Shown in pieces: positions 1 through 35,470 of a stretch of 64,000 nt of DNA. The notes beneath the pieces were generated by a model that worked only from the letters and a program-made list of their open reading frames with translations, ran no database searches and was not told the DNA's origin. The first letter of the stretch is position 1. Each line of letters starts with the position of its first letter. The translations under genes and the position numbers were made by a program. Source of the stretch: a virus (lineage: Duplodnaviria; Heunggongvirae; Uroviricota; Caudoviricetes); the IMG/VR virus record IMGVR_UViG_3300031853_000017, positions 2,397-66,396 of that record; one strand, 5' to 3'.

Positions 1-2
1 AC

Positions 3-365
3 CAGAAATTCAAGGCAATTGCGGAAAAATATCGTCCTGACATAAAGGTATCACAGCATGGCGATTATTGCAATGGAAAATCTAAATATACGCTTGGAAT
101 CATTTTCTACCGCGACGGCAAAGAGTCAAAGGTGTATAACTATTCCGGCACATATGCGGAAATTCTCAACCGTTTGGGCATTCCGGTAATCACCAAATCA
201 GACTATATGACGACCATGAGTCAGTTGGAATATTACAAGGAAAATCACGGAACAATTTGCCCGTTTTTTGGAATTACTACCGATTATTCGGAACAGATCA
301 AAGAATACGAGGAAAAAATAAAATATTTCAACAGTGATAAAGTAATCAGAGAATGGGAGCTTTAA
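3..365 (+). CDS. hypothetical protein, 5' partial (ORF open from window start)
   Basis: Frame open from nt 3 to stop at 365; no motifs recognised. Confidence 0.5.
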   Translation, partial: QKFKAIAEKYRPDIKVSQHGDYCNGKSKYTLGIIFYRDGKESKVYNYSGTYAEILNRLGIPVITKSDYMTTMSQLEYYKENHGTICPFFGITTDYSEQIKEYEEKIKYFNSDKVIREWEL

Positions 366-392
366 TCATAAAAACAAAAGGAGGAAAACACA

Positions 393-614
393 ATGAAAAA
401 ATTTATTGAAGCGTTAAATAACGGAAAAGGTTTTGACTTCTTGACCGATTATGAGAAGTATTCCGAACTCACAAAAGACCAAATCCGCGACATTGCAAAA
501 GAACTCATTTATGCGATCGAGGAATCCGGGCTTATCAAATCGGACATTCAAGCAGTTTATGAGACCGCAACGGAAGAATTGACGGAACAATACAGTTATG
601 AATTTGAAGAATAA
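393..614 (+). CDS. hypothetical protein
   Basis: ATG preceded by AAAGGAGG SD; acidic 73 aa. Confidence 0.6.
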   Translation: MKKFIEALNNGKGFDFLTDYEKYSELTKDQIRDIAKELIYAIEESGLIKSDIQAVYETATEELTEQYSYEFEE

Positions 615-704
615 GATTGAATGTTTGCAACAGCGGCGGAAAATCTAATCCGCCGTTGTAACAAGTATTCAATACTTAAAAAGCAATAAGAAGGAGGAAA
701 CTCA

Positions 705-986
705 ATGAAAAAGTATTATATCCGCTATCCGCGAAATTTCGGCAATGAATACGACTTGCGATTTGTTGACGGCGTAGATGATGAACTCAGAGCAATAGAA
801 CAAGGCTATGAGAGAATCACTAAAAAGGAAGCATTGGAAAAATGCAGAGCCGAACGATGGGCGCGGAAAAACGACCCTGCATTTTCCGGCTATGGTAGTG
901 CGATCATTGTACGCCTTGATTTTGAAGGCGGAGAATCCGAAGCCCGCGAACAATTGACAACATCCGATGGATATATCTACGAATAA
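705..986 (+). CDS. hypothetical protein
   Basis: ATG with GAAGGAGG SD. Confidence 0.6.
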   Translation: MKKYYIRYPRNFGNEYDLRFVDGVDDELRAIEQGYERITKKEALEKCRAERWARKNDPAFSGYGSAIIVRLDFEGGESEAREQLTTSDGYIYE

Positions 987-1033
987 TCGGCGGAGCTGCC
1001 AAATAAAAAAATATGGAAAATTTCAAATAACGC

Positions 1034-1062
1034 TTGACATACTGTTATAAGTATGCTATAAT
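1034..1062 (+). promoter_or_regulatory. sigma70-like promoter TTGACA-17-TATAAT (copy 1 of identical 30-nt promoter)
   Basis: cgcTTGACAtactgttataagtatgcTATAAT; same 30-mer repeats at 5457 and 6468. Confidence 0.6.
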
Positions 1063-1145
1063 CTAACTGTAGACAACACGGCGGGAGAAATCCCGCCTAC
1101 ATCAAAAAGCAGAACGGTAAACATAAAAAACACAACAAGAAAATC

Positions 1146-1502
1146 ATGGAGGTATGGACTATGGCAAGAAGAAATTTAAAGCGCGATTATATCAAAAAGA
1201 TTTTGGCGATCAAAGCGCCGAACGGCTATAGATTCGATTTGGCAAATTACCTCGGAAATCCCGCGTATGACTATGACTATCCGTCATTTTACAAGGTGAT
1301 CGCGGAAACCGAAACGGAAATCACGAAGCGCCGCGTCTATTACATGAAATACTACAACGGCGGCGGCGAGTATTGCGCGGAAACCTACACGCTGGACAAG
1401 AGCGGCGAGAACGAATGGCGCATAGCGCGGAATGTCAAGACCGAAACGCTGGAAGAAGCAAGCCGATTCAATATCAATAAACTTTTGACATTTTGTGAAT
1501 AA
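1146..1502 (+). CDS. hypothetical protein
   Basis: ORF with GGAGG SD; alternative ATG at 1161. Confidence 0.55.
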   Translation: MEVWTMARRNLKRDYIKKILAIKAPNGYRFDLANYLGNPAYDYDYPSFYKVIAETETEITKRRVYYMKYYNGGGEYCAETYTLDKSGENEWRIARNVKTETLEEASRFNINKLLTFCE

Positions 1503-1516
1503 AGGAGGACGACAAC

Positions 1517-1798
1517 ATGACAATCAAGGAATTTTTCGCAGACTACAGCGAGGAATATGCCGATGTTTTTATTCTGGATTCAGAGGACGACGGGGACGCA
1601 TACAGAGGCACGGTATATCCTTTTAATGGAGAAATATCAATTGATTTTTCGGACGAAACGCCCAATCCGGCGGCTATGCGAAAAGCTAAACAGACCGCGC
1701 AGCAGCAACAATACGAAATTACCAGAGCATACCGGAGCGGCACAATTCAGACCGGCTACAGAGCAACAGACATCACGGCGGAATTTTTAAGAGCCTAA
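1517..1798 (+). CDS. hypothetical protein
   Basis: AAAGGAGG SD + ATG. Confidence 0.6.
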   Translation: MTIKEFFADYSEEYADVFILDSEDDGDAYRGTVYPFNGEISIDFSDETPNPAAMRKAKQTAQQQQYEITRAYRSGTIQTGYRATDITAEFLRA

Positions 1799-1880
1799 AC
1801 GGTAAACAAAAAAAGGTTAATAAGCAATTACACCGATAATTTGGCGAATTGCTAAAAATAAAAAAGTGAGGTATTTGAAA

Positions 1881-2087
1881 ATGGTATTGAACATCATCAT
1901 CGGAACACTTGCAGTGGCATACATTACTTTTAATTTTGTTGTCAGTAACAGAATGGACATAAAGGCAATGACCGCAAAGTTTATCACGGGACAGAATGTT
2001 GTCGGCAAGATCGCGACAAACATCTTCTATGCGCCGGCATGGGTTCTGAAAGGATTAAAATTCCTTGCAGTAAAACTAATCAAATAA
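1881..2087 (+). CDS. small membrane protein
   Basis: GTGAGG SD; one hydrophobic helix. Confidence 0.5.
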   Translation: MVLNIIIGTLAVAYITFNFVVSNRMDIKAMTAKFITGQNVVGKIATNIFYAPAWVLKGLKFLAVKLIK

Positions 2088-2200
2088 TTACATAAAGCTG
2101 AGCTAACGGCTATACGGGCAAATTAAAACACAATTAAAGCGATTATATATTGACCGTTTTAATTATGGTTTAACGGAAAAAATACAAAGGAGTGAACGAA

Positions 2201-2365
2201 ATGGCAAAGGGAATTAAATGTACAGTAATTTGCAATACAAAGTGGGGCTATTGTATGACTCCGCGTGAATGTAAGAGCATTAGAGAAGCCGTCCGATACG
2301 CGAAAGACCTGGGAATGGCTTATAGAGTATTTGTTGACGGAAAAGTTGTAAAATCAGGGTGGTAA
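2201..2365 (+). CDS. small hypothetical protein (54 aa)
   Basis: AAAGGAG SD + ATG; below 60-aa ORF cutoff. Confidence 0.45.
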   Translation: MAKGIKCTVICNTKWGYCMTPRECKSIREAVRYAKDLGMAYRVFVDGKVVKSGW

Positions 2366-2379
2366 ACAAGGAGGAAAAT

Positions 2380-2565
2380 ATGGCATACAGGAAATATTAT
2401 AAAACATTTGAGTTTTGCGACACCGAGCAGGAAGCGCAAACAATGTGCGAAAACATCAACCGCACGGCAACCAGACACATAAGAATGAAACATCCGGCGC
2501 ATTATACGCCGTGGAGCAGCACGGACGGAAAAGAACACAAATTTATAGTTTGGTTTGTGAGGTGA
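2380..2565 (+). CDS. hypothetical protein
   Basis: AAGGAGG SD + ATG. Confidence 0.5.
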   Translation: MAYRKYYKTFEFCDTEQEAQTMCENINRTATRHIRMKHPAHYTPWSSTDGKEHKFIVWFVR

Positions 2566-2569
2566 TAGA

Positions 2570-2743
2570 ATGCCAATAGTTATTATTATTGCGGTTCTGA
2601 TCGCCGCAGGGGTTGCAAACGTTGCCGGACAGGACAAACGGAAATCATACGATTCAGACACTACGCGGCAAATGCTGAAAGACATGACAGGAAAAACCAA
2701 ATCGGAATGCCGCCGGATTATTAAAAGATACGGCAAAAGATAA
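2570..2743 (+). CDS. small membrane protein (57 aa)
   Basis: GTGAGGTG SD; N-terminal TM helix. Confidence 0.45.
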   Translation: MPIVIIIAVLIAAGVANVAGQDKRKSYDSDTTRQMLKDMTGKTKSECRRIIKRYGKR

Positions 2744-2756
2744 AGAGGTGAATACA

Positions 2757-3104
2757 ATGAAACCTATGAGATTAACAGAAACAGACAAGAAGCAATTAAT
2801 CGAAAACGGACATACCGAAAGAGATTTCAAACAAATCGAAGAAGCTATGCAGAAATCAAAGACGAAGTATAGCGCCGTCAATATCCAGACCGGAAAGGAA
2901 GAAACGATCCCCCCCCCCCGTGAAAGAGCAATCGAAATCTTAGGGCGCGAAACATGGTTGAGCGGAATTTCAAGAAGCGCATTTCATTGGACTGCTACAC
3001 GAGATAACATGCGCGGATATTTCAAACCGAAATCAGCGGATTATGTTGTTACTCAAATGCCGACATATATAGTGCATTTTGATTCTTCAAATCTTTTCAA
3101 ATAA
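2757..3104 (+). CDS. hypothetical protein containing in-frame C10 homopolymer (PPP)
   Basis: AAGAGGTG SD + ATG; poly-C at 2911-2920. Confidence 0.5.
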   Translation: MKPMRLTETDKKQLIENGHTERDFKQIEEAMQKSKTKYSAVNIQTGKEETIPPPRERAIEILGRETWLSGISRSAFHWTATRDNMRGYFKPKSADYVVTQMPTYIVHFDSSNLFK

Positions 3105-3119
3105 GGAGGAACAGAAAAA

Positions 3120-3407
3120 ATGACAAGAAGTGAAAAGAAAAAACTCATTGCAAACATTCAAACAACAATATGTCTATTTTACAAGGCATTGTTTTCTATG
3201 CCTAAATATGAAGGGTATCAGAAAGACTTGTTATTCGTCGGTTTTGACGTTGAGCAGGCGCGGAAAGAAGTGAGAAGAATCAGCAGCGATTTGAATTGCG
3301 ATACCACACCGGATTATAAACTGACTGCGTACTTTACCAGAACATTGGGAATACTTGCAGAATTATTATCCGCTCAAATGACAGTGCAGGATATTAAAAA
3401 TATATAA
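3120..3407 (+). CDS. hypothetical protein
   Basis: AAGGAGG SD. Confidence 0.55.
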   Translation: MTRSEKKKLIANIQTTICLFYKALFSMPKYEGYQKDLLFVGFDVEQARKEVRRISSDLNCDTTPDYKLTAYFTRTLGILAELLSAQMTVQDIKNI

Positions 3408-3423
3408 CAAGGAGGATTTCAAA

Positions 3424-3786
3424 TTGAAAGCAAAAAAGTTTGAACTGTTTATGTGTTGCTTGGGCAACGGAACAACTGTTTGCAATAAAGCCGTCAGAGA
3501 AGATGGCGATTATAAAACCGTAGCTCACATTTCAGCCGGAGGAAATATCAAATTCTATGTTCCGGAAGATTATATCCCGCAAGAGGATATGCAGATAATC
3601 CGCAAATGTGCAGACAGCGACAAAGCAAAATTCCGCGCGGATTTTGAGAAGATGGGCAAATACGAGCAATATGAAAAAATCCTTGACAGTTTGAACCATG
3701 CGGATTTTCTGAAAGTAACCGCAGACAAAAGACCATTTGACGAGCGTTTGCCGGAACTGCGAGAACACTACTATTCAATAGCATAA
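3424..3786 (+). CDS. hypothetical protein (TTG start)
   Basis: AAGGAGG SD then TTG. Confidence 0.5.
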   Translation: MKAKKFELFMCCLGNGTTVCNKAVREDGDYKTVAHISAGGNIKFYVPEDYIPQEDMQIIRKCADSDKAKFRADFEKMGKYEQYEKILDSLNHADFLKVTADKRPFDERLPELREHYYSIA

Positions 3787-3797
3787 AGGAGGACACC

Positions 3798-3974
3798 ATG
3801 AAAATCTATGCAGAAATTACCATGATGGTTGCGATCGAAACGCAGGAAACCGACGAGGACACAATTAAAGATAAGTTTGCCGATTGCGTTAGATACGCGC
3901 TTGACAATTCAGAAATCACAGATTATGAATACATCAACGTTTTGGAGCTGAGAAAGGCGGTGGAGCAGGAATGA
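3798..3974 (+). CDS. small acidic protein (58 aa)
   Basis: AAAGGAGG SD + ATG; ATGA overlap with next gene. Confidence 0.45.
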   Translation: MKIYAEITMMVAIETQETDEDTIKDKFADCVRYALDNSEITDYEYINVLELRKAVEQE

Positions 3975-4192
3975 AGAAATTGAAAGAATTAATTGACAAA
4001 ACATACGATACAGGAAAAATGCCGGTCAAAAATATGTCACTGAACGATTTCCGCTATCTGGAATACATTCATGACGAGCTGATGAAGGGCAACAGGGTTT
4101 ATTACTGTTTTGCTACGGAAATCATCAATCCGATTTTGAAGAAATGCGGAATCGCGTTCAAGCAGCACCACATGGGCTACATTGCCGGTTAA
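3971..4192 (+). CDS. hypothetical protein
   Basis: translationally coupled ORF. Confidence 0.5.
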   Translation: MKKLKELIDKTYDTGKMPVKNMSLNDFRYLEYIHDELMKGNRVYYCFATEIINPILKKCGIAFKQHHMGYIAG

Positions 4193-4221
4193 TCAAATCA
4201 GAATTTTATGGAGGTGATTAC

Positions 4222-4626
4222 ATGAAAAACGATAAATACATTTACATCGGAATTTTTGTTGACTACGATACGTTGCAGAAATTTGTCAACGATAATATCA
4301 CAAAAGACAAATTATCGCGCGTGATTGATAAACCACACGTAACATTCGCATTCAGACCTAAAGAATACAATCCTGATTTAATCGGAAAACTTGTAATGCT
4401 GAAAGTTGTCGGCTACGCTTGCGACGGCAAGAACCAGGGCTTACAGATCGAGATGGACAACACAAGTATTCCCGAAATTTTGGCAGAGTTTAAGAAAATC
4501 AAGAATCCGCATATCACGTTATCGACAAGCGAGGACGGAAAGCCGGTTGACACCGGAAAGATGAAATTCGAGCCGATTGACAATCCGTTCTACATTATGG
4601 GTACATATGACGGCTTTTCAAAGTAA
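4222..4626 (+). CDS. 2H phosphoesterase family protein (LigT / cyclic phosphodiesterase / Acb1-like)
   Basis: Two H-x-T/S-x motifs (HVTFAF, HITLST) about 80 aa apart in a 134-aa protein; GGAGGTG SD. Confidence 0.55.
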   Translation: MKNDKYIYIGIFVDYDTLQKFVNDNITKDKLSRVIDKPHVTFAFRPKEYNPDLIGKLVMLKVVGYACDGKNQGLQIEMDNTSIPEILAEFKKIKNPHITLSTSEDGKPVDTGKMKFEPIDNPFYIMGTYDGFSK

Positions 4627-4752
4627 ACATAAAAAACACAATAACGCTAAAATGCCGAGAATTTGTCTATATCGCATTTTCTCGGCAAGGAATATAATTA
4701 CACTAACATTACATAAAAACGCGATATGAGCGAAAACAAAGGGGTTTATGAC

Positions 4753-5271
4753 ATGAAGAAAATTATTTGTATGGTAATCACAATCATTATGGTTATTTCT
4801 CTTGTGGGTTGCGGAGCGAAAGACACAGCGGAAAATCAGCCGAAACAAATGGCTGCAAAATCCATTGACGAGAAATTCACATACACAATCGACGGAGAAC
4901 AACAGAAAATAACGCCGTATTATCCGATCGAGGACAATTATGTTATGAACATGGTCGAGGTTGGCTATAGTAATTTCCACATTTATGATTCACGCAACGT
5001 CACCGGCGGGATGTTGGCAAACCGCACGAAATCAGAAAAAATCATTATTGAGCGCGTTATTGCGATCATCACTAACAGAAATCGCGAAGGCGACGCAAAG
5101 GTTCTGAACACAAACGGTGATTACAATTATATCAGTTATTACGATACTGATTTGGACTACACAACGGGAACAGTCATGATTACATACCTGATGTACAATC
5201 CGGAAACAGACTATGAGGATGACATAATCGAGCGCTATGATTATGTGCTTGACCGGAATTTTGAGGATTGA
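4753..5271 (+). CDS. lipoprotein
   Basis: Signal peptide + lipobox LVGC. Confidence 0.6.
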   Translation: MKKIICMVITIIMVISLVGCGAKDTAENQPKQMAAKSIDEKFTYTIDGEQQKITPYYPIEDNYVMNMVEVGYSNFHIYDSRNVTGGMLANRTKSEKIIIERVIAIITNRNREGDAKVLNTNGDYNYISYYDTDLDYTTGTVMITYLMYNPETDYEDDIIERYDYVLDRNFED

Positions 5272-5456
5272 GGTGATTTTGTGTCTTTGCTTGCAGTCGT
5301 ATTAATTTTAATCGTTTGGGCAGTAATTGACATAATAAATGCTGCAAAACCTACAAATCCGCCAATAAAAGACATCAAAAACCATTGTAAAACAATTCAG
5401 CAACTACCAAACAAAAAAGCACGACGAAAATATTTGAATAATCTATCAAAAATTCA

Positions 5457-5485
5457 TTGACATACTGTTATAAGTATGATATAAT
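5457..5485 (+). promoter_or_regulatory. sigma70-like promoter (identical copy 2)
   Basis: TTGACAtactgttataagtatgaTATAAT. Confidence 0.6.
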
Positions 5486-5533
5486 GTTTTCAACTATATG
5501 GCAAGTTGAAAATATCCATAAGGAGGAATATCC

Positions 5534-5923
5534 ATGATTGAAAAAGAATTGATGTTGAAAATATTCAACTATGCAAACAAAGCAAGACAGAAATATATGC
5601 CAGACGTAAAAGATGAAGATTTGTGCGAAAACGGAGCTTTTTATTACATGAACGGTAACGACGGCACAGATTTTGATTGGGAATGGAACGACAGAGTTTG
5701 CGAGATAATGCAATTCTACAAATCCACCGAGTATGGCTTACTGAAAGTATATCCGCACAAAGATGGATATATTTATGGCTATATATATGGCGACGAAGGA
5801 CGAGGAAAAGCCATAGAGATTGAGCCGGAATATATCGGCATTGAGGACGCGGATTTAATTAAAGACTATTTACAAAATGAATTTGACGATCATAACATCT
5901 GGGATGGAGTTATTATCATTTAA
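5534..5923 (+). CDS. hypothetical protein
   Basis: AAGGAGG SD + ATG. Confidence 0.55.
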   Translation: MIEKELMLKIFNYANKARQKYMPDVKDEDLCENGAFYYMNGNDGTDFDWEWNDRVCEIMQFYKSTEYGLLKVYPHKDGYIYGYIYGDEGRGKAIEIEPEYIGIEDADLIKDYLQNEFDDHNIWDGVIII

Positions 5924-5944
5924 TAGTTAGAGAGGAAAAGTAAA

Positions 5945-6193
5945 ATGACATCAAAACTGCAAGAAGAAGCAAAGCAGCGCAAGAATGATTATAACGCAGA
6001 ATATGTAAAGATAACCAAAAGAGCAGCACAAAAGAAATGGGACGAAGCAAACAAAGGAAGAAAAAAACAAAAGATTTTCGTTCTATGGTTGCCGCAAGAT
6101 CAGGATATTGCTGACCATTTGCAGAAAATCAAGAATTTTTCCGATTATATTAAAGGTTTAATTCGTCGCGATATGGAGAACGAGCATGAATAA
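5945..6193 (+). CDS. basic K/E-rich small protein
   Basis: GAGAGGAAAAG SD; paralogous to next ORF. Confidence 0.5.
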   Translation: MTSKLQEEAKQRKNDYNAEYVKITKRAAQKKWDEANKGRKKQKIFVLWLPQDQDIADHLQKIKNFSDYIKGLIRRDMENEHE

Positions 6194-6413
6194 AGATGAA
6201 GCAAAAGAACGGAAAAAAGGCTATCAAAGAGAGTATGAGAAAAAGACCGGTTATGCCGCGCAAATAAAATACAGTAAAGAAAAAACAAGACGTTATACAA
6301 TCAGCGCTATGACTAATACGGAGCAAGATATAATCCAAAAGCTGGATAGCGTAGAAAACAAGAATGGATATATCAAGGCTTTAATCCGAGCAGATATAGC
6401 AAGATCAAAATGA
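6186..6413 (+). CDS. basic small protein (paralog of 5945-6193)
   Basis: Shared KERKKGYQREYEKKTGYAAQ-type motif. Confidence 0.5.
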   Translation: MNKDEAKERKKGYQREYEKKTGYAAQIKYSKEKTRRYTISAMTNTEQDIIQKLDSVENKNGYIKALIRADIARSK

Positions 6414-6467
6414 TATTGGGTTCTCTGCAAAGAGAGCCTAATATTTTTATCTTTTTTCGGAAAACGC

Positions 6468-6496
6468 TTGACATACTGTTATAAGTATGTTATTAT
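6468..6496 (+). promoter_or_regulatory. sigma70-like promoter (copy 3; -10 TATTAT)
   Basis: TTGACAtactgttataagtatgtTATTAT. Confidence 0.55.
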
Positions 6497-6524
6497 TAAA
6501 CCATAGTAAAGGAGCTGATGATTT

Positions 6525-6719
6525 ATGACGATCACAAATGAAACCAAAAGGAAAATGTATAAAGCAGCAAACGCAATTTGCGGAAAATCATATCTTCTTG
6601 ATAATAATGCTATAGTAACCAAATACAGCAAAGAATGGCAAAAGATGACGAAGATTGAACGGATAGCACACACAATTGGATTTTATGACAGCAATTCCCG
6701 CGTATTGAAAATCTTTTAG
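6525..6719 (+). CDS. hypothetical protein
   Basis: AAAGGAG SD + ATG. Confidence 0.45.
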   Translation: MTITNETKRKMYKAANAICGKSYLLDNNAIVTKYSKEWQKMTKIERIAHTIGFYDSNSRVLKIF

Positions 6720-6834
6720 GAGGTGCAGGAAAATAACTAAACTTTTCGGCGAAGCATTAGCAAACCAAATCAGAGAAACCATAGAACAGAACAAAGCCGC
6801 GATAGCTAATCGGATTGAAAGAATCAATGCCGGC

Positions 6835-7215
6835 TTGACAGACCTTGGTGATTGTTTTCTTTCCGACAAGTTAGAGCACGGAAAAATCAAAGAATGCGAA
6901 ATGCAGCTTGCTATTCTTTCCGGCGACGGTTGCGAAGAACGAGAAATCGTAATTGACGAGAACGGCGACGAAGTAGGTACACGATGGGTACAAACCAGAT
7001 ACGGAAACCGAATTGTAGGTCGTGGAATCTTTGCAAATTCCGTCAAGGCATTATGCAAGAAAACCGGATGGACAATAACGAGAAGAAGGGTTCCGGTATG
7101 GACGAAGTTTGAAACCTATACGAGCGGAATGGCTGGCGTTTATAGCGGATATTATAAGACCGTGAGATGGCACACGAACATGAAAACAGGCGAATATGTC
7201 GGCTATCCAGAATGA
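6835..7215 (+). CDS. hypothetical protein (frame open upstream to 6709; true start uncertain)
   Basis: ORF from TTG 6835; AGGAGG at 6718 with in-frame ATA 6733 but no canonical start. Confidence 0.45.
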   Translation: MTDLGDCFLSDKLEHGKIKECEMQLAILSGDGCEEREIVIDENGDEVGTRWVQTRYGNRIVGRGIFANSVKALCKKTGWTITRRRVPVWTKFETYTSGMAGVYSGYYKTVRWHTNMKTGEYVGYPE

Positions 7216-7560
7216 GGAAATATATAATTACTATACTTTGATTAAAGTACAGTCAAGAAATACTAAACATCAAAGTATAGTAATTATTAAAATAATAAGG
7301 TATGCTATACATAAGTGATTAGTATAAAGTATAGCTAATCATTTATGTATAGTATATATATATGTTTCCCAAAGGGAAACATATAATATATTATATACGT
7401 TTTTATTGTTATACTATTCTTTATTCCTTAACGTATAGTATATAATATATTATTATATAATGTATTGCTATTCATTAATGTATAGTATAATAAAGAATAG
7501 CTATTCATTAATGAATAGTATATAATATATATATATATATATAAGAGCAATTTCTGACGC
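7216..7560. repeat. AT-rich iteron region (GTATAGTATA-like repeats, palindromes, (TA)n); candidate replication origin or regulatory region
   Basis: At least 6 copies of (A/T)GTATAGTATA(T/A)AAT; perfect palindrome ATGTTTCCCAAAGGGAAACAT at 7362-7382; ATTCATTAATGAAT palindrome; (TA)10 tract. Confidence 0.45.
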
Positions 7561-7766
7561 GGCAATCAATCGAGCGGAATTTTCCTCTATGGTTTTTAAT
7601 CAGATTGATTCCCTTGTCTATGTGCCGTCTTGCGACAACACATAATATATTGTTAAAATCGTTTATTTTGGCTTGTATTGGATTTTTGCTTTAGCAATAT
7701 AATTTCATTACTTTTAGATAAAAATGCGATACAGGCGATTCTGGCTTATTTTAGAGGTGGTTTAGA

Positions 7767-8174
7767 ATGACAAAGGAAGTTTATAATAAACTGATAAGAA
7801 TTAAATCGGAGCTTGACCGCAAAATTTCCGGCGCATATTCTACTATGGATTTATTCGACATCATCATATATGTTGATTGGTGTAAGCAATATCACAAAGC
7901 ACCGGACAAGGTATTGGACACGCTTATTCTGTACATTATCGCCGTGCAGGACGGAAATTCAGACCAGATAGACAAATACTATGCCTATGACATTAAAAGC
8001 GATATGGAGGCTTATAAGCCGCGCAGCAAATATCAAGTGAGAATGAGGTCTAAGAAGCCATATAGTTCATGGGCAGTAATCAAGACGTATGACACGGAAT
8101 CCGCAGCAAAAGCATACGCCGAAAAAGCAAGCAAATCTCATTCCGATATGGTTTATAAAGTTTTTCAAAAATAA
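7767..8174 (+). CDS. hypothetical protein
   Basis: GAGGTGG SD + ATG. Confidence 0.55.
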   Translation: MTKEVYNKLIRIKSELDRKISGAYSTMDLFDIIIYVDWCKQYHKAPDKVLDTLILYIIAVQDGNSDQIDKYYAYDIKSDMEAYKPRSKYQVRMRSKKPYSSWAVIKTYDTESAAKAYAEKASKSHSDMVYKVFQK

Positions 8175-12884: not shown

Positions 12885-13062
12885 TAATTTGTATCAAAGA
12901 TACACCTATAAAGAGTGTGCAAGGGAGCAAGCCCGATGACCGTACACCAACCTACTTTATGCAAGGTGGTAATGCTTGACCGATAGGTTTTTTAATCCTA
13001 TCGGTGACGATAGGGTTTTATCTTTTACGGCTCAAATCTAAAATTTAAAAGGATTTGAAACA

Positions 13063-19770: not shown

Positions 19771-20580
19771 ATGAAACCAATGAATTATAAAGAATTAGTT
19801 TTAAGACCATGTATGGTAAAGACCATTGGAAAAGCGTTGTTTCATCTTTGGGAACAATATAGTAAGCCGATTCCGGCAGGAGTGACTATCGGCAGCTATC
19901 CCGCAGGAATTGTAAGTTATACCGTTGGAATCGTTGAAGATAGCAATGGACAAATTCATAGAGTACCGCCGGAAGAAATCAAGTTTTTAGGCGATATAAT
20001 GAGGGAATACGATTTTGGCGAAGAAAATGACTTTGGCGAAGAAAACAGTGATTTGGTTTATCCTTTTATGTCTGGCACATGTTTTATGTTTGATAGCCCA
20101 CTACGTTTTTATGAATATGCTATATCCATAGATTACGGAACAGTAAATCCATGCTCCGCAGGAATTTGGGGACACAACAAAAAACATTGGTATAGAATAT
20201 CAGAATATTATTTTGACTCTCGAAAAGAAGGTTATCAAAGAACGGATAAAGAGCATTTTGATGAAATTTGCCGATTGATTGGCGATAAACGCATTAAAGC
20301 ATTTGTTATAGACCCATCTGCGGTGAGTTTTATTGAGCTTGTAAGAAGAGATGGTAGATTACCTGTTGTGGTTGCGGTGGATAATATAGGGAAAGGAATT
20401 TCACAAGTAGAATCTGCTATAAAGAGTGGTGAAATTAGAATTTGTAGGTGTTGTCGAAACGCCATTAGAGAGTTTAATGAATATAAAATAGATTCATTAA
20501 CTCATAAACCAATCAGAGAAAACGACCACGCAATGGATGATATTAGATACTTTGTGTCGGCATTGGAAGAATTGAAATAA
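19771..20580 (+). CDS. terminase large subunit nuclease-domain-like (RNase H-fold) protein without ATPase domain
   Basis: C-terminal AFVIDPSA ... ENDHAMDDIRY resembles the TerL nuclease-domain signature; no Walker A; internal DFGEEN tandem duplication. Confidence 0.4.
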   Translation: MKPMNYKELVLRPCMVKTIGKALFHLWEQYSKPIPAGVTIGSYPAGIVSYTVGIVEDSNGQIHRVPPEEIKFLGDIMREYDFGEENDFGEENSDLVYPFMSGTCFMFDSPLRFYEYAISIDYGTVNPCSAGIWGHNKKHWYRISEYYFDSRKEGYQRTDKEHFDEICRLIGDKRIKAFVIDPSAVSFIELVRRDGRLPVVVAVDNIGKGISQVESAIKSGEIRICRCCRNAIREFNEYKIDSLTHKPIRENDHAMDDIRYFVSALEELK

Positions 20581-22358: not shown

Positions 22359-23321
22359 GTGACTATTATGAAAACCAATACAATGACAATTTCATCTCCG
22401 TTATTATTTGGCAATATGACGTTTACGGCGGAAGTTCCCGCGCAGAGTCAGCCGAAACTCAAAAAGGACGGAATGCCTAAAATCATCGTGCAGAACAAGA
22501 AGCGCGGAAGAAAATCCGAGGTCTATCCGATTCAGGTGTCTGACATTCGCCGCTTTATGGATTGGTTCGAGAGCAACAAGAAATGGGAATGTTATCTTAT
22601 TTTCGTTATCTCTTGTAATCTTGCCCGCAGAATCGGCGATACGCTTTCCTTACAGTGGAAACATTTCTATGACACTAAAACAGGCAGATTCCGCAAAGAT
22701 TTGCTTGAAATCATCGAGGATAAAACCGACAAACTCGCAAATCCGCACATTAACACGGCTGTTAAAAATGCAATCGTGAAGTATCTTGCCGAAACCAACG
22801 TTGACCCATCTGAAAACAATTACGAGAACTATGTTTTTACTCAGGTGAGCGGAAACTATAAGGGCAGAGTAATGACCGCAGACGGTTATCGCAAATGCTT
22901 GAAAAAGGCTGCTGTTGCGCTCGGAATTGATTACAATGTCGGAACTCACAGCACAAGAAAAACGTTCGGTATGCTGTCCCGTATGCTCCATGCAGGAGAT
23001 TATGATAGCATGGCTCTGCTTGGCGTTATCTATAACCACAGAGATGAAAAGACGACAAGAAGATACACCGGCTTGACAAAGCAGAAGGTTGACACATATT
23101 TTGACGATATGGGAACATTCTTTGACGATTATGTAACTGGCGGAAAAACCTTTACAGAAGTTGCGGAAACTCCCGTCGTTCACATTGATGTCAACGATTT
23201 GCGCGATATTATCAAAATGGCTTATACTGCCGGCGCAGAAAATTCAACCACAAATGACCCAACGGTTCACATTGACGCAATCAATGAAATCTGGGCTATG
23301 ATTGACGGATTAAAGAAATGA
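22359..23321 (+). CDS. int: tyrosine site-specific recombinase/integrase
   Basis: ARRIGD (box I Arg), HSTRKTFG (HxxR), TTRRYTG (catalytic Tyr) motifs. Confidence 0.7.
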   Translation: MTIMKTNTMTISSPLLFGNMTFTAEVPAQSQPKLKKDGMPKIIVQNKKRGRKSEVYPIQVSDIRRFMDWFESNKKWECYLIFVISCNLARRIGDTLSLQWKHFYDTKTGRFRKDLLEIIEDKTDKLANPHINTAVKNAIVKYLAETNVDPSENNYENYVFTQVSGNYKGRVMTADGYRKCLKKAAVALGIDYNVGTHSTRKTFGMLSRMLHAGDYDSMALLGVIYNHRDEKTTRRYTGLTKQKVDTYFDDMGTFFDDYVTGGKTFTEVAETPVVHIDVNDLRDIIKMAYTAGAENSTTNDPTVHIDAINEIWAMIDGLKK

Positions 23322-30960: not shown

Positions 30961-31253
30961 ATAAGAGAAGTCAGGAGATAACACCTTGACTTAAAAAATT
31001 CTCTTGTAAAGTAAACATAAAAAACATAATTAAATAATCGTAAGTAGTGAGTATAGAGCCTTTTGAAAAATAGCGAAACATCATTAGAATAATTAGTTCA
31101 TCTCCCTTCAAAGGAGATAGTCTTGGTTAAAGTCCGAGGTGTTGTTTCAAAGTTTGGATAAAGAAAAAGATAACATCGCGCGGGTTATCTCCCACAGGTG
31201 AAAGTCCTGTGGCTTACGTTGATATAGATATTACATTACAAAGGGAGTTACAA

Positions 31254-32873
31254 ATGTTAAACATTCTTATTCCAATCGGCATTGCGGTTGCGGTGCTTGC
31301 GTTTATAGTCATTTTCCTCTGTCGAATTTACAGAGTAGCAGACATTGACAAGGCGCTGATTATCACCGGAGGTAAAGAACCAGTCATTAAAGTATCAGGT
31401 GGTAGTTTTGTCGTTCCGATTTTCCGAAAAGCTCAGTATTTTGATTTATCAATGCTGACTGTTACAGCAGACCGTGATGAAGTAAAGACTAAAACATCAG
31501 TTCCTATCGTTATTGATTGGACAGCCCAGATTCGACCAGATACAATGAATCACGATAATTTACGTAAAGCAATTATTTCATTCAAAGAGCGAGGTCAAAA
31601 GGGCATTATCAATGACATCAAATTGACACTAACAGGTGCGGTTCGAGATATTGTTGCCGGAATGACACCGGAAGAAGTTCTCCGCGACAAACAGGCATTT
31701 GCCGAGAATGTAAGAGAAACAGTAGCAGATGAAATGGTCAATATGGGTATGGAGCTTGTTTCGCTCAATATTCAGGATATTTCAGACCAGAACGGCTACT
31801 ATGACAACATTGCTGCGCTCGACATGGAAGATAAACGTCAGGCTGCGGAAAAGAAGAAGGCAGTAATCAATGAATCCGTTCGTTCCCAGAATGCAGAATC
31901 AGAGAGAATTGCTTCACAAAACGAATTAGCCGCTGCATTGGCTGTCGCTGAAAAGCAGAGAGATAACAATATTAAGAAAGCGGCGTACAAGGCAGAAACA
32001 GATAAGGCTAATGCCGATGCGAACATTGCCGGCGAGTTGCAACGTACAATCAGGCAACAGGAAGTTGCAGAGCAACAAGGTCGTGTTGAGGTTGTAAAGC
32101 AGGAACAGGCTAATCTTGCGGCGATTAAAGAGCAGGAAGTAATTGCGACAAAAGCCGAATCCGAGAAAAAGAAAAAGCGGATTGAAGCAGAAGCAGACGC
32201 AAATGTTCAGACCATCGGCGCAGAAGCAAGGGTAAAGGTTGCCGAAAATGAAGCAAGCGCTGTAAAGATTCAGGCAAATGCACAGGCTGAAAGACTTAAA
32301 ACAGAAGGTGATGCCACTGCCGCAGTTATCAAGCAAAAGGGTATTGCGGAGGCTGATGTAACCAAACAGAAAGGTCTTGCAGCGGCGGAAGTCGAAAAGC
32401 AACAGGGTCTTGCACAAGCAGAAGTAATTAAGCAGAAGGGTCTTGCAGAGGCGGAAGTTGAAAGACAGAAGTTGATGGCACAGGCAGAAGGCGAGAGAGC
32501 ATTGGCGGATGCTCGTGCTTCAAATGAGAAAGTAAACTTTGAAATTGAGAAGTTGAAGCTCGAAACACAGGCAAGAATCACCATTGCTACCAAGACTGCG
32601 GAGCTTATGGCTGATGTAGGTAAGAATGCGGAGTTCGTTAATATTGGTGGCGGTGCTGCCAACGGCGGAACTGGAAACGTATTGACCGACACACTTTCAA
32701 GCATTCCAGTGCTGATGAAGAAATTAGACGCGGAAAATACCGCTCTAAACGGAAAGCCTTTCAATGATGAACTGCGAAACCTGATTGCAAGTATTGCAGA
32801 ACCAGTCAAGGGATTGCTTTCAACGACGGTGAATGAAGCACCGAAAACTGTGGAAGATACCGACGCAGAATAA
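31254..32873 (+). CDS. flotillin/SPFH (band 7) domain protein
   Basis: N-terminal TM + SPFH core + long Ala/Glu/Lys-rich QKGLAEAEV repeats typical of flotillins. Confidence 0.7.
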   Translation: MLNILIPIGIAVAVLAFIVIFLCRIYRVADIDKALIITGGKEPVIKVSGGSFVVPIFRKAQYFDLSMLTVTADRDEVKTKTSVPIVIDWTAQIRPDTMNHDNLRKAIISFKERGQKGIINDIKLTLTGAVRDIVAGMTPEEVLRDKQAFAENVRETVADEMVNMGMELVSLNIQDISDQNGYYDNIAALDMEDKRQAAEKKKAVINESVRSQNAESERIASQNELAAALAVAEKQRDNNIKKAAYKAETDKANADANIAGELQRTIRQQEVAEQQGRVEVVKQEQANLAAIKEQEVIATKAESEKKKKRIEAEADANVQTIGAEARVKVAENEASAVKIQANAQAERLKTEGDATAAVIKQKGIAEADVTKQKGLAAAEVEKQQGLAQAEVIKQKGLAEAEVERQKLMAQAEGERALADARASNEKVNFEIEKLKLETQARITIATKTAELMADVGKNAEFVNIGGGAANGGTGNVLTDTLSSIPVLMKKLDAENTALNGKPFNDELRNLIASIAEPVKGLLSTTVNEAPKTVEDTDAE

Positions 32874-32939
32874 GTAACGGTATTATACATAATAGGAGAG
32901 TGTGGAAACACTCTGCACTCTCCAATACCTCTTATATAT

Positions 32940-33015
32940 TGGGCTGTAGCCAAGCGGTTAAGGCATCGGTCTTTGACACCGTGATTCGTTGGTTCAAATC
33001 CAACCAGCCCAGCCA
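32940..33015 (+). tRNA. tRNA-Gln(TTG)
   Basis: Acceptor TGGGCTG/CAGCCCA, anticodon loop CTTTGAC, T-loop TTCAAAT, encoded CCA. Confidence 0.65.
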
Positions 33016-33021
33016 ATACAT

Positions 33022-33111
33022 TCTCGTGGAGTTCGGTAATGTCGCATGTGATACTGGACGAAGGCAAAATCGCCGTGGTTTATGTGGGTTCAAATCCCAT
33101 CACGAGAGCCA
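33022..33111 (+). tRNA. tRNA-like, 90 nt, anticodon unresolved
   Basis: Perfect 7-bp acceptor TCTCGTG/CACGAGA, T-arm GTGGGTTCAAATCCCAT, CCA; internal arms atypical. Confidence 0.4.
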
Positions 33112-33546
33112 GACCCGCCGTTACAAGTAAACACAGAGTTGAATGTAGCGGAATGAACCTAATAATTGGTCATTAGTCAGTGGGTAGAATAGCCACACGG
33201 GTCAAACTGCCCGTAGCCAAAAGAGTTTGTTTTCATACTTTTGTTTATCAGAAGTAAGGTTTGTACGTTTTACTTTATAAGAGCGTGGAATACGGTTTCA
33301 ATTTAAGCCGAGGGAAGTTTATTCATTCTGACCTATGGAAAGTGAATGAGTAAGGTGGGATTCGCGCCTTGCAGTAACGTGGCAAGTGGAAACATTTCGG
33401 GTTGGCTACCGAAATTGGGAACACACCGATTAGGATGACAACCTACTTTCAACTGCAAAAGATAACAATAGTCAATAAATTTAATGGCTCGCGGCTCGCA
33501 AAGAGCGACCACATATTATGACTTTGGCGGAAGTCGCGGGTTATAT

Positions 33547-33639
33547 GGCGCAGTAACCCTAATAGGCAAGGGAGCAGTTTGCTAAACTGTGAGTAGCCGA
33601 GCAATCGGTGTGTTGGTTCGAGTCCAACCTGTGCCGCCA
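33547..33639 (+). tRNA. tRNA-Ser(GCT)
   Basis: Acceptor GGCGCAG/CTGTGCC, anticodon loop TTGCTAA, long variable arm GCCGAGCAATCGGT, CCA. Confidence 0.6.
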
Positions 33640-33813
33640 TAAGGTTCTTGTTGACCGAAGAATAACAAGCGATGCCCAATGAGAAGCGGGCGTGAAGTCT
33701 GTCAGTCGGACAATGCTGAGATAGCGGCTGCGTGTTATGTGTGACTTTTCGGCGGGTTTTCAATAGGACTTTAGCGTGAATAAAGTTGAAGTAATAATCC
33801 GCCCACGACATAT

Positions 33814-34216
33814 GGGGCTGAAATAGATTCGACAGGGCACAGAAAACATATAACTTCGCAGGAATGTAACATCCTTAAAGTACACCTTAAAAAATAAACG
33901 ACACTACTGTTGTTACACTTCATCCCGCGCTTTTAGCAGTTCTCGGTCAGAGAGCCGTAGCGTGAGATTCCGATAAGTACCTGCTATTCGGTCTAACTTG
34001 TCGGACGGAAATAGAATAGCAACCAATGGTTTCTTACTTCCGCAAAAAGTAAGTGGTGGAGTGGGTGTAAATCTTTACATCTCCATTCGTTTCCCGCGAA
34101 TTAAAACAAAGTTGTGGTTTGCAGGTTTCCACGGAGAAAAATCGGCTATTGCGTAAGAAAAGTTAGTGTGAGTATGTGTTTTGGACACGGAGGGCAGTTC
34201 TCCGTCAGCTCCACCA
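33814..34216 (+). ncRNA. ssrA: tmRNA (ssrA)
   Basis: 5' GGGGCTGAAATAGATTCGACAGGG matches tmRNA 5' consensus; 3' GGACACGGAGGGCAGTTCTCCGTCAGCTCCACCA matches tmRNA T-arm/acceptor/CCA; ends pair. Confidence 0.7.
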
Positions 34217-34242
34217 ATTTATAAATAAGGGGTTTAATTCTC

Positions 34243-34899
34243 ATTTCATATATTTATAAGATTACAAATCTTGCAAATGGCAAGATATATGTCGGCAATA
34301 CCAGTAGGGATATTCAGACACGTTTGAAGGAGCATTTAAGAGAATCTAAAAAAGAAAGAAATAGAAATAGACCTTTATCTATTGCTATAAGAGAATATGG
34401 TCAGGAAAATTTTCAAATTGATTTAATTGAAGAATGTCCTATTGAAATTGCACCGGAACGTGAAAGATATTGGGTTGATCGTTATAATAGTTTCAAAGAT
34501 GGATATAATGCGACCTATGGTGGGTTAGGCAGTAATAGCGTTGATTATGACAAAGTAGTTGATACATATTTGCAAGTTAGGAGCCAAAAAGAAACTGCGG
34601 AATTATTGAATATTTCACCTTTTACTGTAAGTAGTATATTACAACAAAAAAATGTAGACTATGATACAAGTTATGAAGTATTAGCAAAAAGATGCAGTAA
34701 ATCAGTTGATATGTTGTCTATGAGTGGCGAATTTATAAGACAATTTCCTTCGATACGCAAAGCAACTAAATATATTATAGAAACCGAGAATAAACCTTAT
34801 AAGCATATATTTGGTATAGAACAACACATTATAAATGTTTGTCAAGGAAAAAGAAATTCAGCTTATAACTACAAATGGAAATATTCAAATGTAGTTTAA
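34243..34899 (+). CDS. GIY-YIG homing endonuclease (I-TevI-like), probable non-ATG (ATT) start
   Basis: SYIYKITNLANGKIYVGNT...RLKEH...YGQENF...YWVDRYNSFKDGYN; GIY-YIG motif lies upstream of first ATG/TTG (34324), directly after tmRNA. Confidence 0.6.
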   Translation: MSYIYKITNLANGKIYVGNTSRDIQTRLKEHLRESKKERNRNRPLSIAIREYGQENFQIDLIEECPIEIAPERERYWVDRYNSFKDGYNATYGGLGSNSVDYDKVVDTYLQVRSQKETAELLNISPFTVSSILQQKNVDYDTSYEVLAKRCSKSVDMLSMSGEFIRQFPSIRKATKYIIETENKPYKHIFGIEQHIINVCQGKRNSAYNYKWKYSNVV

Positions 34900-35052
34900 C
34901 TAAAAGATGAACCAAATCCACATCTATAAAAAGGATTGGTGGTAGTGGAATCTTGTATTCACCTGATGAACTTAACTCACATCATTAAAAAGAGTTAGTG
35001 GTGGGATTCGAGGATAAACCTCGCGGGAGAGTCAATTATACTCTCCCAAAAC

Positions 35053-35127
35053 GCAGACATAGTGTAATTGGTAACACACCGTCCTTCCAAGCCGGATTTG
35101 CGGGTTCAAGTCCCGTTGTCTGCTCCA
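35053..35127 (+). tRNA. tRNA-Gly(TCC)
   Basis: Acceptor GCAGACA/TGTCTGC, loop CTTCCAA, CCA; one mismatch in anticodon stem. Confidence 0.5.
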
Positions 35128-35133
35128 TAAAAT

Positions 35134-35208: not shown

Positions 35209-35211
35209 TAT

Positions 35212-35466: not shown

Positions 35467-35470
35467 ATAT

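What the first reader, a model, noticed from the sequence alone, without database searches (positions are those of the whole stretch)
7216..7560. AT-rich iteron block with perfect palindromes and (TA)n: candidate replication origin or packaging/regulatory site
**What the sequence shows**
- About 350 nt with no ORF.
- At least six copies of the GTATAGTATA-type 11-15-mer in both orientations.
- A 21-bp perfect palindrome ATGTTTCCCAAAGGGAAACAT (7362-7382).
- An ATTCATTAATGAAT palindrome and a (TA)10 microsatellite.

**Why it matters**
- The organisation is typical of iteron-containing origins. The clamp gene lies 4 kb downstream.
Basis: seen in the sequence. Interest (0 to 1): 0.5.

Follow-up and report, generated by a model that had tools for sequence, protein, structure and literature searches.

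The report
Duplicated protein-binding repeat array in phage
The AT-rich repeat block is a real, conserved DNA element of a large Clostridia-type phage; a mirror-image copy sits 11 kb away in front of the phage's own RNA polymerase genes, so it most likely binds a regulator of delayed gene blocks, though a replication origin is not excluded.

Summary
Window 7216-7560 lies in the largest gene-free gap outside the tRNA/tmRNA region (7216-7766, 24.7% GC). It holds 12 copies of the hexamer GWATAG/CTATWC against 0.8 expected. These form four ~26-35-nt direct units, several inverted pairs, a perfect 18-bp palindrome and a length-polymorphic (TA)n.

The main new result is that the block is not unique. 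Overlapping metagenome contigs show the same genome carries a second copy about 11 kb to the left. That copy is in mirror orientation, directly upstream of the promoter of a YonO-like single-subunit RNA polymerase operon.

The same layout recurs in diverged relatives: an inverted TACTATAC/GTATAGTA pair, forward GAATAGTAT units, a TA-run, then an outward sigma-A promoter 60-110 nt on.

Raw GC skew has no inflection. Third-position AT skew does change sign near the locus. No initiator gene lies beside the block.

My best reading (0.4) is an operator-type binding array at the borders of the early region that controls the outward delayed operons. The positional analogue is the MrpR/SroF boxes of phage SPbeta. 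A replication origin remains a live rival (0.25). The binding protein is unknown.

The parts
7216..7766 (.). Whole gene-free gap between ORF 6835-7215 and ORF 7767-8174. At 551 nt and 24.7% GC it is the largest gap in the window outside the tRNA/tmRNA region.
7224..7287 (.). Left inverted pair: ATAATTACTATACTTTGAT, 26 nt, ATCAAAGTATAGTAATTAT. The arms are 19 nt and perfect. The same pair (TACTATACTTT ... AAAGTATAGTA) opens the module in copy 1 and in L040, L056 and L065.
7301..7356 (.). Second inverted pair (22-nt arms, 91% complementary). Its right arm, 7335-7356, is direct unit 1.
7359..7385 (+). G+C-containing hairpin TATATGTTTCCC-AAA-GGGAAACATATA. It is terminator-like but has no immediate T-run. 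It is present only in this copy and is the likely stop for early-arm transcription.
7410..7419 (-). Reverse-oriented GAATAGTATA site.
7422..7459 (+). Direct unit 2: TATTCCTTAACGTATAGTATATAATATATT...
   Evidence: D2
7457..7491 (+). Direct unit 3, containing the near-palindrome CTATTCATTAATGTATAG (7468-7485).
   Evidence: (D1)
7490..7524 (+). Direct unit 4. It contains the 12-bp palindrome GAATAGCTATTC (7495-7506) and the perfect 18-bp palindrome CTATTCATTAATGAATAG (7501-7518). Units 3 and 4 are 33 nt apart, about 3 helical turns.
7519..7543 (.). TA-run ending in a pure (TA)9. Its length varies by 4-8 nt among strains. It directly abuts the last GAATAGTAT site, as it does in relatives.
7544..7629 (+). 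G+C-richer spacer block. It is conserved in the 74%-identity relative L237 and contains the 16-nt inverted repeat 7556-7571/7603-7618. Its function is unknown.
7630..7659 (+). Moderate sigma-A-type promoter, TTGCGA-18-TAAAAT with a TG extension, reading away from the array. Its -10 element is missing in L237, so it is uncertain.
7767..8174 (+). First downstream gene (135 aa). It has no family assignment and has homologues only in this phage lineage.
8178..8226 (+). Context: a strong promoter of this phage's own common type (GTAAATATAAAAA, then TTGACA-17-TATACT). It drives the SprT-like gene and onward towards the clamp gene.

Best explanation
The block is a sequence-specific protein-binding array of the operator type. 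It marks and controls one border of the phage's early region.

**Shown**
- The genome carries two copies in mirror orientation, about 11 kb apart.
- Copy 1 lies directly upstream of the sigma-A promoter of the YonO-like RNA polymerase operon, which reads leftward.
- Copy 2 (this finding) lies upstream of a rightward promoter, at the start of the block that leads to the SprT-like and sliding-clamp genes.
- Between the two copies lie the Cro/CI-type switch gene and about 30 small early genes.

**Inferred**
- A phage-encoded regulator recognises the asymmetric core G(A/T)ATAGTA, which is embedded in ~26-nt boxes.
- It loads cooperatively on boxes spaced about 3 helical turns apart, plus an upstream inverted pair.
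- It thereby sets when the two outward 'delayed' operons are expressed, by repression or by blocking read-through.
- The hairpin at 7359-7385 stops early-arm transcription.
- The (TA)n tract is an easily unwound, slippage-prone spacer rather than a phased contact element.
For: **Real, unique, non-random array**
-.

**Second copy in the same genome**
- The core of about 75 nt is roughly 93% identical to L016 13192-13346, while the flanks are unrelated.
- L016 is the same genome as the window. L243 and L240 join the RNAP side and copy 1 to the window's protein 393-614. L016's end equals L239's start at 100% identity, and L239 runs through copy 2.

**Each copy points outward and is followed by a promoter**
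-.

**The layout is conserved in relatives**
- L040, L056 and L065 (RNAP 56-76% identical) share the same motif order, always just upstream of TTGACA-17-TACAAT/TATAAT of the RNAP operon.
- Another lineage, L090, has a different 32-nt repeat array at the same place. This pattern is what co-evolving regulator-site pairs would give.

**Positional analogue in SPbeta**
- The repressor MrpR/SroF binds long (24-26 bp) boxes at several distant promoter regions, including yonP upstream of yonO (PMC10516654; bioRxiv 10.1101/2025.11.27.690993).
- In the SPbeta-like phage Goe13, AATATGTATATAA occurs exactly twice in 11 kb, in mirror orientation, at the two outward promoters flanking the yonO-upstream region.

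**The block is not one of the phage's ordinary promoters**
- The phage's dispersed promoter motifs are absent from 7216-7766.

**The non-coding block is conserved more tightly than the next gene**
- It stays about 99% identical where the next gene is only 84% identical.
Against: - No binding protein is identified.
  - The Cro/CI-type HTH next to copy 1 has its own different operators (3x CCAAnnTTGG), and no homologue of it was found in the module-bearing relatives.
  - The 320-aa tyrosine-recombinase-like protein (22359-23321) shows no detectable sequence similarity to MrpR in the PDB search, and appears to keep the catalytic Tyr.
- Most sites lie 100-400 nt upstream of the promoter rather than over it.
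- The distance from the last site to the -35 element varies from 82 to 162 nt, and (TA)n length varies between strains. This argues against phased contact with RNA polymerase.
- The promoter at 7630-7659 is only moderate, and its -10 is absent in L237.
- A second inverted copy was not found within +/-10 kb in five relatives of other sub-lineages.
- Site arrays next to an AT tract fit an origin equally well.
Confidence: 0.4

Rival explanations
1. Replication origin. It could be one of two, as with oriL/oriR of phage SPP1. An initiator would bind the GWATAG boxes, melt the adjacent (TA)n, and be helped by negative supercoiling behind the nearby outward promoter.
For: - The architecture is repeated binding sites, then a directly abutting TA-run of variable length, then a strong promoter reading away.
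- The fold-back potential is extreme (z = -9.4).
- Third-position AT skew is +0.13 (+0.35 at four-fold sites) in 20 of the 22 genes left of the block, against -0.085 (0.00) to its right. The change point lies between 7.7 and 11.3 kb.
- In relatives the module lies inside a 0.9-1.7-kb AT-rich gene-free region at the divergent strand switch.
- Many members of this phage family replicate as plasmid prophages, and the largest of them has two replichores (PMC3098183).
- Replication genes lie downstream.
Against: - Raw GC skew is monotonic, and GC skew at four-fold sites does not change.
- Genes are co-directional on both sides of the block.
- No initiator gene or DnaA boxes lie next to it.
- The AT3 shift may only reflect the codon usage of the small early genes.
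- The strand switch, with several other repeat arrays, lies next to copy 1, not here.
- The distant relative L001 has no such block after the homologous gene.
Confidence: 0.25
2. Topological or segregation element. The two mirror copies would be bound by one protein that pairs them, closing the 11-kb early region into a loop. Alternatively they would act as centromere-like sites of a plasmid-prophage, as with arrays that are both centromere and operator (omega protein of pSM19035, ParR/parC).
For: - There are two inverted copies.
- Short sites occur in both orientations upstream of promoters.
- The family includes plasmid prophages.
Against: - No partition ATPase/GTPase or adaptor gene lies next to either copy.
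- At least one cultured relative is virulent (PMC11035940).
Confidence: 0.1
3. Passive end-of-operon structure. Stacked AT-rich hairpins would terminate or insulate early-arm transcription, with no dedicated binding protein.
For: - The block begins 9 nt after a stop codon.
- It has three consecutive strong inverted repeats and a terminator-like hairpin.
Against: - The hexamer core and its orientation pattern are conserved across phages while the palindromic context changes.
- Copy 1 and the relatives' copies have no co-directional upstream genes to terminate.
- There are no T-runs after the AT-rich hairpins.
Confidence: 0.1
4. Site-specific recombination sites. Inverted arms around a 6-bp ATTAAT spacer would be used by the phage's XerD-like recombinase to invert or resolve DNA between the two copies.
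For: - CTATTC-ATTAAT-GAATAG has the form of a tyrosine-recombinase core site.
- The two copies are inverted.
- A recombinase gene lies at 22359-23321.
Against: - All 10 contigs displayed (of 23 carrying the downstream gene), and the linking contigs, show one orientation only.
- The arrays hold many more sites than a core site needs.
Confidence: 0.05
5. Packaging (pac) recognition site.
For: Clustered short repeats resemble some pac sites. A partial terminase-like ORF lies at 19771-20580.
Against: - In the cultured relative PMBT24 the mapped pac site is about 9 kb from the equivalent AT-rich region.
- Ten contigs from separate samples and L236 read straight through the block; L237 begins within it.
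Confidence: 0.03

Closest known systems
SPBRE boxes bound by the integrase-fold master repressor MrpR/YopR/SroF of Bacillus phage SPbeta
   Same: - Same broad phage group: large Firmicutes siphophages with a YonO-type RNA polymerase.
- Long boxes (24-26 bp) lie at a few distant promoter regions, including the promoter region of the RNA polymerase operon (PMC10516654; bioRxiv 10.1101/2025.11.27.690993).
- The boxes sit in mirror orientation at outward promoters in Goe13.
- The heptamer ATGTATA is shared.
   Different: - SPBRE sites are single boxes, whereas here 4-6 boxes are clustered with a TA-run.
- No MrpR homologue was detectable by sequence.
- The published SPBRE logo could not be read, so sequence equivalence is untested.
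- It is unknown whether this phage is temperate.
Iteron-plus-AT-tract phage and plasmid origins (lambda ori; SPP1 oriL/oriR bound by G38P; the lactococcal phage c2 origin between divergent gene clusters)
   Same: - Several copies of a dyad-containing binding site lie next to an easily melted AT tract.
- A nearby promoter is present.
- Two distant copies occur in one genome, as in SPP1. This comparison rests on my own knowledge of those systems.
   Different: - No adjacent or overlapping initiator gene.
- No GC-skew inflection.
- Each copy is tied to an outward promoter.
- Replication function is untested.
Dual operator/centromere repeat arrays (omega-binding heptads of pSM19035; ParR/parC of plasmid R1)
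   Same: Short sites in direct and inverted orientation are clustered upstream of promoters. This comparison rests on my own knowledge.
   Different: No partition genes lie beside either copy, and the sites are hexamers inside longer boxes.

Membership tests
Iteron-type replication origin | Three or more repeated initiator-binding sites | tested here: met
   Four direct ~26-35-nt units and 12 hexamer cores.
Iteron-type replication origin | Adjacent AT-rich unwinding element | tested here: met
   The TA-run at 7519-7543 abuts the last site, as it does in relatives.
Iteron-type replication origin | Cognate initiator gene at or next to the site | tested here: not met
   No Rep, DnaA, DnaD or helicase-loader family was found in the flanking genes or in the families listed for the window's 112 ORFs (25 of 32 matched families shown).
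Iteron-type replication origin | Compositional skew switch or gene-strand switch at the site | tested here: inconclusive
   There is no GC-skew inflection and no strand switch. Third-position AT skew changes sign, with a change point between 7.7 and 11.3 kb.
Iteron-type replication origin | Replication actually initiates there | not testable with these tools
   This needs marker-frequency analysis, 2D gels or plasmid assays.
SPBRE/MrpR-type repressor boxes | Long asymmetric box repeated at distant promoter regions of the genome | tested here: met
   There are two loci about 11 kb apart, each upstream of an outward promoter. Only about 80 kb of the genome was seen.
SPBRE/MrpR-type repressor boxes | A box in the promoter region of the YonO-type RNA polymerase operon | tested here: met
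   Copy 1 lies 60-220 nt upstream of TTGACA-17-TACAAT of the RNAP operon.
SPBRE/MrpR-type repressor boxes | Integrase-fold repressor homologous to MrpR/SroF encoded by the phage | tested here: inconclusive
   A 320-aa Phage_integrase-domain protein is present. It matches only an ordinary integrase in the PDB, keeps an aligned Tyr, and resembles the small recombinases of streptococcal and Bacillus phages.
SPBRE/MrpR-type repressor boxes | Sequence match to the SPBRE consensus | not tested
   The logo is not in the paper's text or supplement. Only the inferred Goe13 core AATATGTATATAA could be compared, and it shares ATGTATA.
Intrinsic terminator | G+C-rich stem followed directly by a T-run | tested here: inconclusive
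   One hit at 7359-7385 passes the lax scan, but the tail is ATATATTATA. The count is no higher than in shuffles.
Known RNA families (Rfam) | Match at or above the gathering score | tested here: not met
   Only sub-threshold chance hits to microRNA hairpin families.
Tyrosine-recombinase inversion system | Both orientations of the segment between the inverted sites exist in populations | tested here: not met
   All 10 contigs shown of the 23 carrying the downstream gene, and the linking contigs, have one orientation.

The most novel reading that the evidence does not exclude
The hairpin-prone GWATAG array plus (TA)n could be the recognition or entry site of the phage's YonO-type single-subunit RNA polymerase. 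No promoter for this enzyme class has been defined.

The enzyme would start at extruded or melted DNA, in the manner of phage N4 hairpin promoters. It would feed back on its own operon from copy 1 and switch on the right arm from copy 2.

The data do not exclude this. Both copies point in the direction of the downstream genes. The element is rare in the genome, as is the single YonO promoter of SPbeta (PMC5467207). It lacks a good sigma-A promoter of its own.
Probability: 0.08. Interest if true: 0.8.

Novelty: new member of a known kind. Interest (0 to 1): 0.4.

Why it matters
- YonO-type polymerase phages are abundant in gut-type metagenomes and include the botulinum-toxin phage c-st. How they time expression of their polymerase and where they start replication is largely unknown outside SPbeta.
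- A conserved cis-element with a clear motif layout gives a concrete handle. It brackets the early region and sits in front of both the polymerase operon and the replication-gene block.
- The 26-nt box can be used as bait to find the regulator or initiator.
- The two copies predict co-regulation of two operons.
- The element remains an uncharacterised repeat array of a familiar general kind, and its function is not settled here.

Tried and rejected
- **Close phage relatives.** INPHARED has none. There is only a 91-nt hit, plus marginal hits to the AT-rich start region of Bacillus phages Tsamsa and Izhevsk, which are similar in style but not homologous.
- **Exact-pattern scans for the palindrome.** In genomes and metagenomes the single hits elsewhere are unrelated operator-like palindromes or chance. 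The degenerate scan GAATAGTAT-N3-6-TATATATA returned almost only chance hits.
- **Ordinary sigma-A promoters inside the array.** The count is no better than in shuffles.
- **Dispersed phage-polymerase promoter.** The motif is confined to this block within the window.
- **Host-factor site.** Only three single chance-type hits were found among the 185,579 representative genomes.
- **The Cro/CI-type HTH next to copy 1 as the binder.** It has its own different operators and does not track the module.
- **A shared neighbouring protein that tracks the module.** None was found.
- **Function of the 135-aa and 307-aa downstream proteins.** There were no family or PDB hits.
- **Rfam.** No match.
- **A second inverted module copy in other sub-lineages.** Not found within +/-10 kb.
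- **The SPBRE sequence from the papers.** It is not in the text or the supplement.

Full report
**1. What is there**

The window is one strand-uniform piece of a large phage-like genome. Nearly all long ORFs are on the + strand, GC is about 38%, and cumulative GC skew is monotonic. It carries:
- about 20 tRNAs, a tmRNA and a SAM riboswitch;
- NAD-salvage genes, an NAD-dependent ligase, a Ro-like protein, DNA methylases and a sliding clamp.

The finding lies in the largest gene-free gap outside the tRNA/tmRNA region, 7216-7766 (551 nt, 24.7% GC).

- The core is the hexamer GWATAG/CTATWC. It has 12 copies in 345 nt against 0.8 expected from local dinucleotide shuffles (0 of 2000 shuffles reached 12).
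- The cores sit in four direct units of ~26-35 nt, [G/T]CTAWTCATTWATGWATAGTATA(T)AAT. The last two units are 33 nt apart.
- There are two long inverted pairs on the left (19 nt perfect; 22 nt at 91%).
- A G+C-containing hairpin lies at 7359-7385.
- A perfect 18-bp palindrome lies at 7501-7518.
- A TA-run ending in (TA)9 follows.
- As single-stranded DNA the block folds with z = -9.4.
- Neither the 10-mer nor the 18-mer motif occurs in clustered form anywhere else in the 64 kb.

**2. Population data**

- Twenty-three contigs carrying the downstream gene were read, and 10 from separate samples were fetched. All 10 carry the gap essentially unchanged.
- The only recurrent difference is the (TA)n length, which varies by 4-8 nt.
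- In a strain whose downstream protein is only 84% identical, the gap is still about 99% identical.
- A 74% relative keeps the last boxes, the TA-run and the 7544-7629 block, but lacks the -10 element and leader of the predicted promoter at 7630-7659.

**3. The block is duplicated in the same genome**

An exact-pattern scan found the same double palindrome on another contig, L002/L016. The core of about 75 nt is roughly 93% identical, while the flanks do not align.

On that contig the module is followed by a near-consensus promoter (TTGACA-17-TACAAT with an A-rich upstream element), two small genes and a 946-aa protein. That protein matches Pfam RdRP PF05183 and is a YonO-type single-subunit RNA polymerase.

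Three contig links show that this contig is the left neighbour of the window.
- L243 and L240 carry the polymerase side and copy 1 (97-99.5% identical to L016) together with the window's protein 393-614.
- The last 120 nt of L016, a 60-nt tandem repeat where assemblies break, equal the first 120 nt of L239.
- L239 then runs through window genes and through copy 2.

In window coordinates, copy 1 lies at about -3.7 kb and points left. Copy 2 (the finding) points right, and the two are about 11 kb apart.

Between the two copies, from left to right, lie:
- a roughly 1.3-kb gene-free region with other repeat arrays (4x AACCCTCAAnnTTTCG, about 9x a 10-mer, and 60-nt tandem repeats);
- a Cro/CI-type HTH gene with three CCAAnnTTGG palindromes in its promoter region;
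- about 30 small rightward genes.

**4. Relatives**

The polymerase has more than 150 relatives in IMG/VR, on contigs up to 183 kb. Named relatives include Clostridium phage c-st and other C. botulinum group III plasmid prophages, virulent Enterocloster phages and SPbeta.

In this family a 0.8-1.7-kb AT-rich gene-free region lies upstream of the polymerase operon, usually at a divergent strand switch.

Three relatives, L040, L056 and L065, have polymerases 56-76% identical to this phage's. All three share the following layout with both copies in this phage:
- an inverted pair TACTATAC-TTT ... AAA-GTATAGTA;
- one to three forward GAATAGTAT units;
- a TA-run directly after the last unit;
- 60-110 nt later, a sigma-A promoter reading away.

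The hexamer core is kept while its palindromic context changes. In L040, for example, it sits inside TTAAGACTATTCTTAA. This suggests recognition of an asymmetric core.

L090 has a different array (7-9 repeats of 32 nt) at the same place.

PMBT24 has TA-runs and TATAGTATATAGTAT before its polymerase promoter.

The distant relative L001 lacks any such block after the homologous upstream gene.

**5. Weighing the functions**

*Against an ordinary promoter cluster*
- Promoter-like matches in the array are no more frequent than in shuffles.
- The phage's own dispersed promoter motifs are absent from the gap. These are GTAAATATAAAAA...TTGACA-17-TATAMT at nine or more sites, and GTAAACATAAAAAACA at seven sites.

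*For an origin*
- The architecture is sites plus an abutting TA-run plus an outward promoter.
- In relatives the module lies at the strand-switch region.
- Many family members replicate as plasmids.
- Third-position AT skew is +0.13 left of the block and -0.085 right of it. At four-fold sites the values are +0.35 and 0.00. The change point lies between 7.7 and 11.3 kb.

*Against an origin*
- There is no GC-skew change, either raw or at four-fold sites.
- Genes are co-directional on both sides.
- No initiator gene is adjacent.
- The AT3 shift coincides with the early small-gene class, so it may reflect codon usage.
- The strand switch, with its other arrays, is beside copy 1, not here.

*For a regulatory array*
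- Two mirror copies each precede an outward promoter. One leads to the polymerase operon and the other to the replication-gene block.
- This is the position the SPbeta master repressor boxes occupy: the yonP-yonO promoter and the promoters of several yor genes (yorE, yorM, yorZ) (PMC10516654).
- Those boxes are long (24-26 bp) and are read by a monomeric integrase-fold protein at distant sites (bioRxiv 10.1101/2025.11.27.690993).
- In the SPbeta-like phage Goe13 I found AATATGTATATAA exactly twice in 11 kb, in mirror orientation, at the two outward promoters flanking the yonO-upstream region.

*Against a regulatory array*
- The binding protein is unknown.
- The sites lie upstream of the promoter rather than over it.
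- The distance to the promoter is not phased, and it changes with (TA)n length.

*Other readings*
- A pac site is unlikely, because PMBT24's mapped pac is about 9 kb away from the equivalent region.
- Inversion between the two copies is unsupported, because only one orientation is seen.

**6. Verdict**

This is a real, selected cis-element of an uncharacterised sequence family but a familiar general kind.

| Reading | Confidence |
|---|---|
| Operator-type binding array at the border of the early region, co-controlling two outward delayed operons | 0.4 |
| Replication origin | 0.25 |
| Topological or centromere-like element | 0.1 |
| Passive terminator or insulator structure | 0.1 |
| Recombination site | 0.05 |
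| Packaging site | 0.03 |

Noticed in passing
outside the window: about -3.7 kb (L016 13192-13346; L240 3850-4020; L243 1495-1611): There is a mirror-image second copy of the module, directly upstream of the promoter of a YonO-like RNA polymerase operon. L016 is the left neighbour of the window in the same genome.
   Followed up: yes
window 4629-4748 and L016 14204-14322: A second shared non-coding element is also in mirror orientation, so the order is B'-A' ... A-B. It has a hairpin (GCCGAGAA...TTCTCGGC in one copy, GCCCG...CGGGC in the other) followed by TATAAT/TATAAA. In L016 a strong terminator follows, which looks like a small RNA. In the window a membrane-protein gene follows.
   Followed up: partly
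window 8178, 12826, 15551, 22274, 23695, 24260, 30902, 38159, 56297: A dispersed family of strong sigma-A-type promoters shares an upstream motif: GTAAATATAAAAA / AAATAAATATAAAAA, then TTGACA-17-(TG)TATAAT/TATACT.
   Followed up: partly
window 1117, 4623, 8790, 25396, 31011, 38264, 56662: The 16-mer GTAAACATAAAAAACA occurs 7 times (5 exact, 2 with 1-2 mismatches). All copies are on the + strand in inter-gene positions, several of them 25-40 nt before a start codon. It may be a second promoter class, for example for the phage polymerase or a phage factor.
   Followed up: no
window 1-7215 versus the rest: Third-position AT skew is positive in 20 of 22 genes left of the block (+0.13; +0.35 at four-fold sites). 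It is zero or negative everywhere to the right. GC skew at four-fold sites is unchanged.
   Followed up: partly
window 12903-13016: A SAM riboswitch (RF00162, 49.5 bits against a gathering score of 44.4) lies inside a phage genome, preceded by a promoter at 12826.
   Followed up: no
window 31077-40844: There is an array of about 20 tRNA genes. Several carry long inserts (37522-37647, 37655-37756, 37946-38074). One tRNA has anticodon TCA (31077-31148, an opal-suppressor type). A tmRNA lies at 33814-34216.
   Followed up: no
window 61756-62946: An adenylosuccinate-synthetase-like gene matches the PHROG annotated as the PurZ-type enzyme. This hints at possible 2-aminoadenine DNA, which was not examined.
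   Followed up: no
window 22359-23321: A 320-aa tyrosine-recombinase-like protein has its own strong promoter. It is most similar to the small recombinases found in the middle of streptococcal and Bacillus phage genomes. The virulent relative PMBT24 also encodes a XerD-like protein.
   Followed up: partly
L240 5311-5470: Three 10-bp palindromes (CCAAAATTGG, CCAACTTTGG, CCAAAATTGG) lie upstream of a Cro/CI-type HTH gene (L240 5074-5310, - strand). This looks like a classic genetic switch. A G+C-richer gene-free stretch of about 470 nt follows, with no Rfam match.
   Followed up: partly
L016 14360-14479 = L239 1-120; L240 4975-5110: G+C-rich 60-nt tandem repeats overlap the 3' end of the HTH gene. 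Metagenome assemblies of this phage break at them.
   Followed up: partly
L090 4041-4345; L040 2907-3148: Other lineages of the polymerase-phage family carry different repeat arrays in the same gene-free region. L090 has 7-9 repeats of a 32-nt unit with TTATATAAG palindromes. L040 has 6 copies of AAAGATTGTTAAnnnnTTAACAATGT.
   Followed up: no
window genes (Pfam summary): The window encodes a MazF/PemK-type toxin, a Lar restriction-alleviation protein, a GmrSD N-terminal-domain protein, two C5 cytosine methylases, Thg1, a RyR domain, an MFS transporter and an NAD synthase.
   Followed up: no
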